DNA of 64,000 bases from Escherichia phage vB_EcoM_ESCO32. The translations under genes and the position numbers were made by a program. The notes below the pieces were generated by a model. The model was given only the letters and a program-made list of their open reading frames with translations. It did not search any database and had not been told where the DNA came from. The stretch lies in the sequence record OM386658.1, one strand, 5' to 3'. Positions 13,388 through 14,946 of this stretch are shown here, piece by piece; the stretch's first letter is position 1; each line of letters opens with the position of its first letter.

Positions 13388-14237
13388 TCAAATTCAACAT
13401 TTTGCTAATACTTTTACTAACCTGAAGGAAGCAAAATTTAACATTGCAGATTATTCCAAGCTAAAGTTTGGTAGTAACCAGGCAGCAAAAAGAATGGGGC
13501 GCATTCTGGCTGAAAGTTTCTTTTCCAAGTATGAAGAACGACTGGTAAATGAAAGTTTTGTTGTTATTCCATCTCCATATAACTATGTGAAAAATGCAGC
13601 TACAGTGTTATCTGAACATTTTGTAGATCACCTCAACTACCTAATCTCTATCAAAGGAGGTAAAGCAGTGGAGTGGGATATCGTTCATCGTAAAGTGAGC
13701 TATATCAATGATTATGGATTTCTTAGCAAAGAAGATCGTAAGGCTTTGATCGATGGTGACACTTTCTCTATCAATCGTGATTTCTGGGGTAATAAAACTC
13801 TGATTTTCATTGATGATGTTAATATTACAGGAACGCACGAAGAAAAACTTATTGAAATTTTAGACAAAGAAGGTGTTGAAAACGATACGTTTTTCCTGTA
13901 CTTTGCAAAGTATGAAGGTACAGAAGCCAATACCGAAGCTGCACTTAACTTCAACTATATCAATAACCTGGCAGCTTTTATTAAAATGATTAAACAAGAA
14001 ACTGATGCTAAATGTTTGGTTCGTCCTATTAAGTATCTAATGAGTCAAAGCGAAGTTGATTTTAAAATTGCACTTTCACAGCTTCCTTTGTATTATGTAG
14101 AACAACTGTTCTTTGGTTGCCTTGCAGAAGGCTACAATAACATTGAAAAATATAAAGAGAACTTTGATTTCCTACGTCAATTTTTTGAAAGCAACATTAT
14201 CAACAAATCTAATGTTAAAGGGGATTATTATGTCTAA
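13380..14237 (+). CDS. phosphoribosyltransferase-like protein
   Basis: PRPP-binding loop signature LIFIDDVNITGTHEE (hhhhDDxxTTG-like) about two-thirds into a 285 aa protein; overlaps the upstream stop. Confidence 0.45.
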   Translation: MRNQIQHFANTFTNLKEAKFNIADYSKLKFGSNQAAKRMGRILAESFFSKYEERLVNESFVVIPSPYNYVKNAATVLSEHFVDHLNYLISIKGGKAVEWDIVHRKVSYINDYGFLSKEDRKALIDGDTFSINRDFWGNKTLIFIDDVNITGTHEEKLIEILDKEGVENDTFFLYFAKYEGTEANTEAALNFNYINNLAAFIKMIKQETDAKCLVRPIKYLMSQSEVDFKIALSQLPLYYVEQLFFGCLAEGYNNIEKYKENFDFLRQFFESNIINKSNVKGDYYV

Positions 14238-14946
14238 TAAAGTAATGACTTTCGGAGATCCTATCACCAATATTACAGAAAAAGATTTTGGGCGTGTAGC
14301 AACAGATAAAGATGGTGTCTTAAGAATTCGTGTACAAGGTATTACAGCACAGGATGAATATGCTGTGTATGTTTCAGGTCTTAACTATATTGATGATCGC
14401 ATTACACAAAACTTTGCACTGATCGGTGGTGTAGAGAAAATGTATTGGGAAGATGAAATTGTAACAAGTTATCCGGCAGGTATCATTGAGGTATACGGTG
14501 ATCTTTTAGCAGCAGCCGAGAGAGGCGATATAGACGCTATAGCACACTGCTGTAACTGTTTTTGCACTATGGGTAGTGGTATTGCACCAAAAATTAAAAG
14601 CAAGTGGCCTGGTGCGTTTAAAGCAGATTGTGCCACTAAACGTGGTGATTATAAAAAATTAGGTACGTTTACCAAATATATAGAAAACAATTTGACAATT
14701 TATAATTTATATGGACAATATGGTTATAGTCGTCGTGAGGAAGGTAAGCGTGACCTGAATTATGAAGCTATCTACAATGCGTTAGATAGTATGGGAGACG
14801 ATGTTGTATCTTCAGGCGGTAAAATTGTAGGTTTACCAATGCTTGGTTGTGGTTTGGCTGGAGGTTCTTGGAGTATTGTAAAACTTATGATCGAAGAAAC
14901 TCTAGTAAACAAAGGTTTAAATGTAATTGTTTACAAACTGAAATAA
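14230..14946 (+). CDS. macro-domain protein (TARG1/OARD1-like ADP-ribose hydrolase fold) with unknown N-terminal domain
   Basis: C-terminal 140 aa align by eye to TARG1/OARD1: YGDLLAAAERGDIDAIAHCCNCFCTMGSGIAPKIKSKWPGAF ... GLPMLGCGLAGGSWSIVKLMIEE versus GDLF..D.LAHC.S.DC.MGAGIA..FK.KF / MPRIGCGLD.L.W..V..MIEE. Confidence 0.55.
   Translation: MSNKVMTFGDPITNITEKDFGRVATDKDGVLRIRVQGITAQDEYAVYVSGLNYIDDRITQNFALIGGVEKMYWEDEIVTSYPAGIIEVYGDLLAAAERGDIDAIAHCCNCFCTMGSGIAPKIKSKWPGAFKADCATKRGDYKKLGTFTKYIENNLTIYNLYGQYGYSRREEGKRDLNYEAIYNALDSMGDDVVSSGGKIVGLPMLGCGLAGGSWSIVKLMIEETLVNKGLNVIVYKLK

What the first reader, a model, noticed from the sequence alone, without database searches (positions are those of the whole stretch)
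14230..14946. TARG1/OARD1-like macro-domain protein as a candidate ADP-ribosylation eraser (anti-defence)
The C-terminal 140 residues align motif-for-motif with the TARG1/OARD1 macro fold (GDL...D.IAHC.N..C.MG.GIA...K.K.PG ... LP.LGCGL.G..W..V..MIEE). TARG1-type macro domains remove ADP-ribose from proteins and from thymidine-ADP-ribosylated DNA, and the DarG antitoxin of the DarTG defence system uses this fold. A phage copy could neutralise DarT-like or other ADP-ribosyltransferase defences, or process an ADP-ribose-derived metabolite from the neighbouring PRTase/HAD genes. The N-terminal 100 residues are an unrecognised extra domain. The position aligned with the TARG1 GCGLD aspartate reads A here (GCGLAGG), so catalytic competence is an open question.
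Basis: partly seen in the sequence, partly recalled or inferred. Interest (0 to 1): 0.7.

Follow-up and report, generated by a model that had tools for sequence, protein, structure and literature searches.

The report
Phage macrodomain, likely anti-DarT2 eraser
This phage gene encodes an ADP-ribose-removing macrodomain of the kind that phages T4 and PhiKZ use to undo a bacterial DNA-tagging defence (DarTG2), here fused to a small extra domain of unknown role; it is a good but largely expected example of a known counter-defence.

Summary
The window is Escherichia phage muut (Justusliebigvirus, phi92-like). ORF 14230-14946 (+) encodes 238 aa, and residues ~85-238 are a confidently predicted macrodomain of the ALC1/TARG1 class. 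It is not TARG1-type in detail. It belongs to the bacterial SCO6735/BT1257 subclass: Gln163 replaces the catalytic Lys, Ala210 replaces TARG1 Asp125, and the 'mobile loop' is long and basic. SCO6735 has this same active site and efficiently removes DarT-installed ADP-ribose from thymidine in DNA, so the Asp-to-Ala change does not argue against activity. The protein falls in the same PHROG (335) as T4 Tk.4, recently named AdfM and shown genetically to protect T4 from DarTG2. PhiKZ AdfM was shown biochemically to do the same. The anti-defence reading is therefore supported by homology, but it has not been tested for this protein. The N-terminal ~80 aa form a small SH3/Tudor-like beta-barrel. In sister phages this domain heads a MazG-like pyrophosphatase encoded just upstream of a stand-alone macro gene, so the fusion probably arose by deletion of the MazG domain. 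Linkage to the HAD/PRTase genes is confined to one phage subfamily. Verdict: new member of a known kind, modest interest.

The parts
14230..14946 (+). Gene for the 238-aa two-domain protein (muut JR322_gp066; phi92 gp185; Bas61_0068 orthologue)
   Evidence: ORF and sequence. 100% identical to phage muut, where it is annotated 'phosphatase' or 'putative macrodomain protein'.
14218..14223 (+). Shine-Dalgarno-like AAGGGG, 6 nt before ATG 14230. The start codon overlaps the end of the PRTase gene by 8 nt.
   Evidence: Read directly from the sequence. Inference only.
14230..14484 (+). N-terminal domain (residues ~1-85): a small all-beta SH3/Tudor/KOW-like barrel with conserved GRxA and F..(I/V)(G/E)G...MxW(E/K)(D/E) motifs
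14482..14943 (+). Macrodomain (residues ~85-238), ALC1/TARG1 class, SCO6735/BT1257 subclass
14545..14556 (+). H106-C107-C108-N109, equivalent to SCO6735 His24-Val25-Cys26-Asn27 (substrate and water positioning)
   Evidence: phmmer alignment to 5e3b, with residue roles taken from PMC9411070. N109 is invariant and H106 more than 90% conserved in 50 homologues.
14716..14718 (+). Gln163, aligned with SCO6735 Gln85, TARG1 Lys84 and DarG Lys80
   Evidence: Invariant in 50 homologues.
14719..14760 (+). Long 'mobile loop' YGYSRREEGKRDLN: 6 residues longer than in TARG1, the same length as in BT1257, with four basic residues
   Evidence: Alignments. The loop's role in DNA binding is taken from PMC9411070.
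14845..14865 (+). Phosphate-binding loop GCGLAGG (G206-G212). A210 sits where TARG1 has Asp125.
   Evidence: G206, L209 and G212 are invariant.
12731..14237 (+). Context only: HAD-family hydrolase (12731-13387) and ComF-like PRTase_3 (13380-14237). Their ends overlap each other and the macro gene by 8 nt.
   Evidence: Pfam PF00702 at 3.5e-6 and PF15610 at 1.1e-41. Synteny within Stephanstirmvirinae. A functional link is not shown.

Best explanation
The gene encodes an AdfM-type counter-defence enzyme. DarT2 toxins of DarTG2 systems attach ADP-ribose to thymidine in single-stranded phage DNA, which blocks replication. The C-terminal macrodomain binds this ADP-ribosyl-thymidine and hydrolyses the ribose-base bond, restoring replicable DNA. 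Catalysis is expected to follow the SCO6735 scheme. Gln163 and Asn109 position the distal ribose, a backbone-held water acts as proton donor, the GCGLAGG loop holds the diphosphate, and the long basic loop (R168, R169, K172, R173) clamps ssDNA. The TARG1 Lys/Asp dyad is not used. What is shown here: the fold, subclass membership, conservation of the active-site residues, and homology to T4 AdfM. What is inferred: the substrate, the phenotype, and any role of the N-terminal beta-barrel. That barrel may be an adaptor inherited from a neighbouring MazG-like gene by an in-frame deletion.
For: The fold and class are established. The query scores 218.9 bits on PHROG 335 and RB51 Tk.4, which differs from T4 Tk.4 at two residues, scores 219.9 bits. 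Pairwise BLASTP to T4 Tk.4 gives 31% identity, E 2e-17. Both proteins match only the macro part of the PADLOC DarG model. T4 Tk.4/AdfM was the single HIDEN-SEQ hit on a DarTG2 host, and its knockout sensitises T4. PhiKZ AdfM removes T-ADPr in vitro and in vivo. SCO6735, the best PDB sequence match, lacks the Lys/Asp dyad yet is more active than DarG or TARG1 on DarT-modified DNA and rescues DarT toxicity. Its Gln85, Asn27, Gly128 and long loop are all matched in the query. N109 and Q163 are invariant in 50 homologues. Homologues at 45-48% identity in other large phage contigs lie next to NADAR, the anti-DarT1 fold, and NAD-salvage genes. The same phage genus carries a NADAR shown to counter DarTG1, which parallels T4's AdfN plus AdfM pair.
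Against: There is no experiment on this protein or on any Justusliebigvirus with DarTG2; a literature search found none. Identity to T4 AdfM is only about 31%, and T4 AdfM has the short loop. ALC1-class macrodomains are promiscuous: SCO6735 and TARG1 also de-modify proteins, so the natural substrate could differ. The extra N-terminal domain and the tight coupling to the HAD/PRTase genes are not explained by this model.
Confidence: 0.6

Rival explanations
1. The macrodomain works with the adjacent HAD phosphatase and ComF-like PRTase_3, and in sister phages MazG, inside the phage's Ter-like cluster. It would make or degrade a ribose-phosphate or nucleoside-like small molecule rather than repair DNA.
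For: The HAD, PRTase and macro genes overlap by 8 nt each. The order HAD-PRTase-(N-dom-MazG)-macro-...-TerC is kept in the Stephanstirmvirinae lineages and related metagenomic contigs examined. The window also carries TerC, TelA, vWA-TerF and TerD. PRTase plus HAD have been proposed as the signal-biosynthesis part of Ter systems (PMC7824862).
Against: Macro homologues at 45-49% identity in Vequintavirinae, and those in T4-like and FelixO1-like phages, have no PRTase, HAD or Ter neighbours. HAD-PRTase_3 pairs in Rhizobium, Xanthomonas and Caulobacter phages have no macro ORF within 5-6 kb. No macro role is mentioned in the account of Ter systems I could read; the original 2012 paper was not available.
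Confidence: 0.1
2. It reverses ADP-ribosylation of proteins or RNA, for example host ART toxins such as mRNA-modifying CmdT, or marks laid by phage-encoded ARTs. Alternatively it hydrolyses soluble ADP-ribose derivatives (O-acetyl-ADPr, ADPr-1''-phosphate, ADPr-derived immune signals).
For: TARG1 and SCO6735 also hydrolyse protein-linked ADP-ribose. Macro and NADAR domains in phages were predicted to degrade ADPr-derived signals. Homologues sit in NAD/ADPr islands with SIR2, YAcAr, NUDIX and NAMPT.
Against: The only genetic and biochemical data for phage macrodomains of this class point to DarT2-modified DNA. The long basic loop is the feature tied to DNA activity in SCO6735: loss of Lys89 lowers DNA activity but not protein activity.
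Confidence: 0.2
3. It is the 'phosphatase' of its database name: an ADP-ribose-1''-phosphate phosphatase that clears by-products of NAD-dependent RNA repair or tRNA splicing.
For: In Vequintavirinae the homologue lies a few genes from RNA ligase 2. Yeast Poa1p appears among the structural matches.
Against: Poa1p ranks well below TARG1, BT1257, DarG and SCO6735. No KptA/Tpt1 or RNA ligase lies near the gene in this window. The name derives from an old motif annotation, not from an assay.
Confidence: 0.05

Closest known systems
T4 Tk.4 = AdfM (anti-DarT factor Macrodomain), bioRxiv 10.1101/2025.11.20.689424
   Same: Both are phage-encoded orphan macrodomains in the same PHROG (335) with equal scores. 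Both have Gln at the catalytic-Lys position, the H-x-C-N motif and a G-x-G-rich phosphate loop, and match only the macro half of the DarG model.
   Different: Identity is about 31%. T4 AdfM is a bare 155-aa domain with the short loop (8 residues shorter). The muut protein has the long basic loop and an extra N-terminal beta-barrel, and the genomic neighbourhoods differ.
Streptomyces coelicolor SCO6735 (PDB 5E3B) and Bacteroides BT1257 (2FG1): bacterial ALC1-like macrodomain subclass
   Same: These are the best sequence matches among solved structures (E 5e-16 and 2e-15). They share Gln85, Asn27, His24, Gly126/128, GCGLAGG and the longer mobile loop. SCO6735 removes T-ADPr from DNA.
   Different: They are chromosomal bacterial proteins (SCO6735 is DNA-damage regulated), single-domain, and about 30% identical to the query. 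They are not counter-defence factors.
PhiKZ gp104 AdfM and the DarG2 antitoxin macrodomain (T. aquaticus 5M3E, M. tuberculosis 5M3I)
   Same: Same fold class (Foldseek TM to target 0.79-0.81). The function proposed here has been demonstrated for them.
   Different: They keep the catalytic Lys (K78/K80). DarG has a C-terminal DarT-binding domain and a neighbouring darT, and neither is present here.
Human TARG1/OARD1 (PDB 4J5S)
   Different: The TARG1 Lys84/Asp125 dyad is replaced by Gln163/Ala210, and the loop is 6 residues longer. A different catalytic scheme is therefore expected.

Membership tests
Macro domain superfamily (PF01661), ALC1/TARG1-like class | Profile match above Pfam's gathering score | tested here: met
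   29 bits against a cut-off of 22, residues 106-217.
Macro domain superfamily (PF01661), ALC1/TARG1-like class | Three-layer alpha/beta/alpha macro fold, with the closest structures in the ALC1-like class | tested here: met
   The AF2 model has block-mean pLDDT of 84 for residues 81-90 and 92-99 from residue 91 on. The top 14 Foldseek PDB hits are TARG1, BT1257, DarG and SCO6735.
Macro domain superfamily (PF01661), ALC1/TARG1-like class | Binds ADP-ribose | not testable with these tools
   Only the binding-loop residues (N109, MGSGIA, GCGLAGG) could be checked, and they are conserved.
TARG1/OARD1 proper | Catalytic Lys84/Asp125 dyad | tested here: not met
   Q163 aligns with Lys84 and A210 with Asp125.
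SCO6735/BT1257 subclass of ALC1-like macrodomains | Gln at the Lys position, plus His24/Asn27 and Gly126/Gly128 equivalents | tested here: met
   Q163, H106, N109, G206 and G208. Residue roles are from PMC9411070.
SCO6735/BT1257 subclass of ALC1-like macrodomains | Mobile loop about 5 residues longer than in TARG1 or DarG, carrying basic residues | tested here: met
   A 6-residue insertion relative to TARG1 and no gap relative to BT1257. The loop reads YGYSRREEGKRDLN.
SCO6735/BT1257 subclass of ALC1-like macrodomains | Hydrolyses thymidine-linked ADP-ribose on ssDNA | not testable with these tools
   Needs an enzyme assay.
AdfM (phage anti-DarT2 macrodomain) | Phage-encoded orphan macrodomain homologous to T4 Tk.4 | tested here: met
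   Same PHROG 335 at 218.9 bits against 219.9 for RB51 Tk.4. BLASTP to T4 Tk.4 gives E 2e-17 at 31% identity. No darT neighbour.
AdfM (phage anti-DarT2 macrodomain) | Required for phage growth on DarTG2 hosts and removes DarT2 marks | not testable with these tools
   No published data were found for Justusliebigvirus.
DarG antitoxin (DarTG2 system) | Macro domain plus a C-terminal DarT-binding domain, encoded next to darT, with catalytic Lys80 | tested here: not met
   Only positions 6-144 of the 329-position PADLOC DarG model are matched. The neighbours are HAD, PRTase and small ORFs. Gln replaces Lys.
Ter-associated nucleoside-metabolite module (HAD + PRTase_3) | Consistent co-occurrence of the macro gene with HAD/PRTase_3 across lineages | tested here: not met
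   Linked only within Stephanstirmvirinae. Unlinked in Vequintavirinae, T4-like, FelixO1-like, Rhizobium, Xanthomonas and Caulobacter phages.

The most novel reading that the evidence does not exclude
The N-terminal beta-barrel may be a portable adaptor module. It occurs alone (71 aa), or fused to MazG, to the C-terminal domain of the protein encoded beside nrdD, or to the macrodomain. It could dock different nucleotide or ADP-ribose enzymes onto one phage assembly, such as the replisome or a dNTP-synthesising complex, or onto DarT itself. In Justusliebigvirus the eraser would then be delivered to the ssDNA where DarT2 acts. A related unexcluded reading is that the macro, MazG, HAD and PRTase_3 genes form one pathway tied to the phage's Ter-like cluster.
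Probability: 0.15. Interest if true: 0.6.

Novelty: new member of a known kind. Interest (0 to 1): 0.3.

Why it matters
DarTG systems are common in E. coli and restrict many phages. Knowing which therapeutic-type phages carry erasers helps predict host range, and phi92-like phages are broad-host-range candidates. This protein extends the newly defined AdfM class to the Stephanstirmvirinae. It shows that phage AdfM proteins include the Gln-type, long-loop (SCO6735-like) chemistry as well as the Lys-type (DarG-like) chemistry. With the NADAR already shown to work in this genus, it suggests a two-enzyme kit against both DarT1 (guanine) and DarT2 (thymine) marks, as in T4. The domain fusion gives a small, testable case of how phage accessory genes are rebuilt by deletion.

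Tried and rejected
1. A word-indexed homology search with the N-terminal 87 aa found only fragments of the same protein. The exhaustive HMMER search found only three real relatives (P0124, P0125, P0127), plus a repeat-protein hit with 20 matched stretches (P0123) and a 6-stretch hit (P0126) that I treat as spurious.
3. I looked for this phage's NADAR (AdfN of Bas60) in the window with a phage NADAR query and found nothing, best E 0.34. Pfam scans of 30 ORFs across the window did not find PF08719. It is probably outside the window or too divergent. The supplementary table with its accession was not held.
4. The promoter/terminator scan was no better than shuffled sequence, so I make no claim about the transcription unit beyond the overlapping stop and start codons.
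5. The original Ter-system paper (PMC4104200) was not available. I relied on its summary in PMC7824862.
6. I considered TARG1-type Lys/Asp catalysis and rejected it on the alignment.
7. I considered a DarG-like two-domain antitoxin and rejected it, because there is no C-terminal DarT-binding domain and no darT.
8. MAFFT misplaced TARG1 around the loop, so residue equivalences for TARG1 come from the phmmer alignment.

Full report
**Identity of the window and gene**

The 2-kb stretch around the finding is 100% identical to Escherichia phage muut (Justusliebigvirus, Stephanstirmvirinae; phi92-like). It is 95-100% identical to 53 further records of the same genus. The ORF 14230-14946 (+) is RefSeq JR322_gp066, named 'phosphatase'. 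In the BASEL phages Bas60-62 it is named 'putative macrodomain protein'. ATG 14230 is preceded by AAGGGG with a 6-nt spacer. The upstream ATG 14212 used by BASEL has no such site.

**Checking the observation**

All the quoted motifs are present. Residues ~85-238 are a macrodomain by every test:
- Pfam PF01661 scores above its gathering cut-off.
- PHROG 335 gives E 2.6e-64.
- PDB sequence matches are SCO6735 5e-16, BT1257 2e-15, TARG1 4e-10 and DarG about 1e-3.
- The PADLOC DarG model gives 3.5e-13, but only over its macro half.
- An AF2 model built on 50 homologues has block-mean pLDDT of 92-99 from residue 91 on (84 for 81-90).
- Its best PDB structural matches are TARG1 (TM to target 0.91), BT1257, DarG and SCO6735.

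**Which kind of macrodomain**

The phmmer alignments put Gln163 opposite TARG1 Lys84 and Ala210 opposite TARG1 Asp125. They also show a 6-residue insertion after Gln163 relative to TARG1. Against BT1257 there is no gap, and against SCO6735 there is one. Counting along the 5E3B alignment reproduces the published residue numbers His24, Val25, Asn27, Gln85, Lys89, Gly126 and Gly128. The query equivalents are therefore H106, C107, N109, Q163, S167, G206 and G208.

The SCO6735 study reports several relevant facts:
- The enzyme lacks the TARG1/DarG catalytic residues.
- Gln85 is essential.
- The loop is five residues longer than in TARG1 and DarG, carries lysines needed for DNA activity, and marks the subclass.
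- The enzyme removes DarT-made ADP-ribose from thymidine faster than DarG or TARG1 and rescues DarT toxicity.

The query has the same active-site pattern and a loop with four basic residues. N109 and Q163 are invariant in 50 homologues.

**Link to a known counter-defence**

A tblastn search finds macro homologues in 2,901 phage records, including T4. T4 Tk.4 (155 aa) is 31% identical, with a pairwise E of 2e-17. The Tk.4 of the T4-like phage RB51, which differs from T4's at two residues, scores on PHROG 335 the same as the query, 219.9 against 218.9 bits.

A 2025 preprint found tk.4 as the single gene needed by T4 on a DarTG2 host. A clean knockout confirmed this, and the gene was named adfM. 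A 2026 paper independently named PhiKZ gp104 AdfM. It showed removal of T-ADPr in vitro, rescue of DarT2 toxicity and loss of host range on deletion. Bas60-62, the same genus as this window, carry a NADAR that counters DarTG1 but not DarTG2. A macrodomain eraser would complete the pair, as in T4.

Homologues at 45-48% identity in other large phage-like contigs lie directly beside NADAR, NAMPT, NUDIX, YAcAr, SIR2 and PRPP-synthetase genes. This fits an NAD/ADP-ribose conflict role.

**The N-terminal domain**

Only Justusliebigvirus and one metagenomic relative (P0004, 53% identity) have the N-domain-macro fusion. In Klebsiella phage KP13-26, Citrobacter phage Tr1 and a 153-kb metagenomic contig the same ~70-aa module heads a MazG-like pyrophosphatase. 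That gene lies between the PRTase and a stand-alone 152-163-aa macro gene. phAPEC8 has the macro gene alone after the PRTase.

The simplest history is an in-frame deletion that removed the MazG domain and joined the barrel to the macro gene. This is an inference.

The exhaustive search also found the module alone (P0127, 71 aa). It also found it fused to a C-terminal domain shared with window ORF 7836-8786, which lies next to nrdD. Eleven positions are invariant across the six aligned copies at 29-40% identity, which argues for a retained function.

**Neighbourhood and the metabolite rival**

The HAD (PF00702) and ComF-like PRTase_3 (PF15610) genes overlap each other and the macro gene by 8 nt. 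Downstream lie TerC, TelA, vWA-TerF and TerD. PRTase plus HAD have been proposed as the signal-making part of Ter systems, and such sets were noted in some phages.

The macro-PRTase linkage nevertheless stops at the subfamily boundary. Vequintavirinae homologues (45-49% identity), T4-like phages and FelixO1-like phages lack it. HAD-PRTase_3 pairs in Rhizobium, Xanthomonas and Caulobacter phages have no macro ORF within 5-6 kb. I therefore rate a shared pathway as unlikely, though not excluded.

**Verdict**

The fold was already annotated in public records. The function is now a known kind (AdfM), although it is untested here. What is new is modest: assignment to the Gln-type, long-loop subclass, and the fusion to a small, otherwise undescribed beta-barrel that sister phages attach to MazG. 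Confidence is about 0.9 that it is an active ADP-ribose-conjugate hydrolase and about 0.6 that its main role is countering DarT2.

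Noticed in passing
window 12731-22072 (+): A Ter-like gene set lies on one strand: HAD 12731-13387, PRTase_3 13380-14237, TerC 15503-16480, TelA 18259-19362, vWA-TerF-like 20609-21403 and TerD 21476-22072. Several unassigned ORFs lie between them, including a Ser-rich 201-aa protein at 16698-17303. 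Its function in a lytic coliphage is unknown.
   Followed up: partly
window 1989-2399 (+): A 136-aa DUF4326 protein (Pfam E 1.8e-21). Iyer et al. 2021 report DUF4326 fused to Macro, NADAR and SLOG domains and predict an NAD/ADPr-linked enzyme. There is no PDB sequence match. Whether it relates to the AdfN NADAR reported for Bas60-62 is unresolved.
   Followed up: partly
window 7836-8786 (+): The C-terminal ~100 aa of this 316-aa protein, just upstream of nrdD and labelled 'ribonucleotide reductase' in RefSeq with no Pfam hit, are homologous to the C-terminus of P0125. The N-terminus of P0125 is the same small beta-barrel as in the macro protein.
   Followed up: partly
L004 4983-5590 (Citrobacter phage Tr1): The N-domain-MazG gene is split into 142-aa and 60-aa ORFs compared with an intact 202-aa metagenomic version (P0124). 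This is either a frameshift or pseudogene, or a sequencing error.
   Followed up: no
GenBank MG065645, MG065656, MG065639 (matches to window 13300-15300): Records named 'Campylobacter phage' A145, C3 and A150 are 95-100% identical to E. coli Justusliebigvirus in this region. The host label looks doubtful.
   Followed up: no
L017-L019 4519-5450; L012 5001-5911: In other large phage-like contigs the macro homologue is immediately preceded by a NADAR gene inside an NAD island (NUDIX, YAcAr, NAMPT, SIR2, PRPP synthetase). One lineage has two macro genes in tandem.
   Followed up: partly
L021, L024, L025: The overlapping HAD-PRTase_3 gene pair is conserved in distant Rhizobium, Xanthomonas and Caulobacter phages. 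In the loci of Rhizobium phage TM61 and Xanthomonas phage XaC1 no Ter-type gene is annotated within 5-6 kb. In TM61 it lies next to an NMN adenylyltransferase/Nudix gene. This hints that the pair has a role of its own.
   Followed up: partly
window 12330-12351 and 15466-15484: Two GC-rich hairpins lie in this region. One is a terminator-like stem-loop after the AAA-ATPase gene. The other is a perfect palindrome, GCGGAGGA-caa-TCCTCCGC, between the 82-aa ORF and terC. They bracket the small-ORF/HAD/PRTase/macro block. The scan as a whole was not above chance.
   Followed up: no
window 14212 vs 14230: Public records disagree on the start codon. BASEL uses ATG 14212 (244 aa), as does protein cluster P0001. 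RefSeq uses ATG 14230 (238 aa). Only 14230 has a Shine-Dalgarno-like site.
   Followed up: yes
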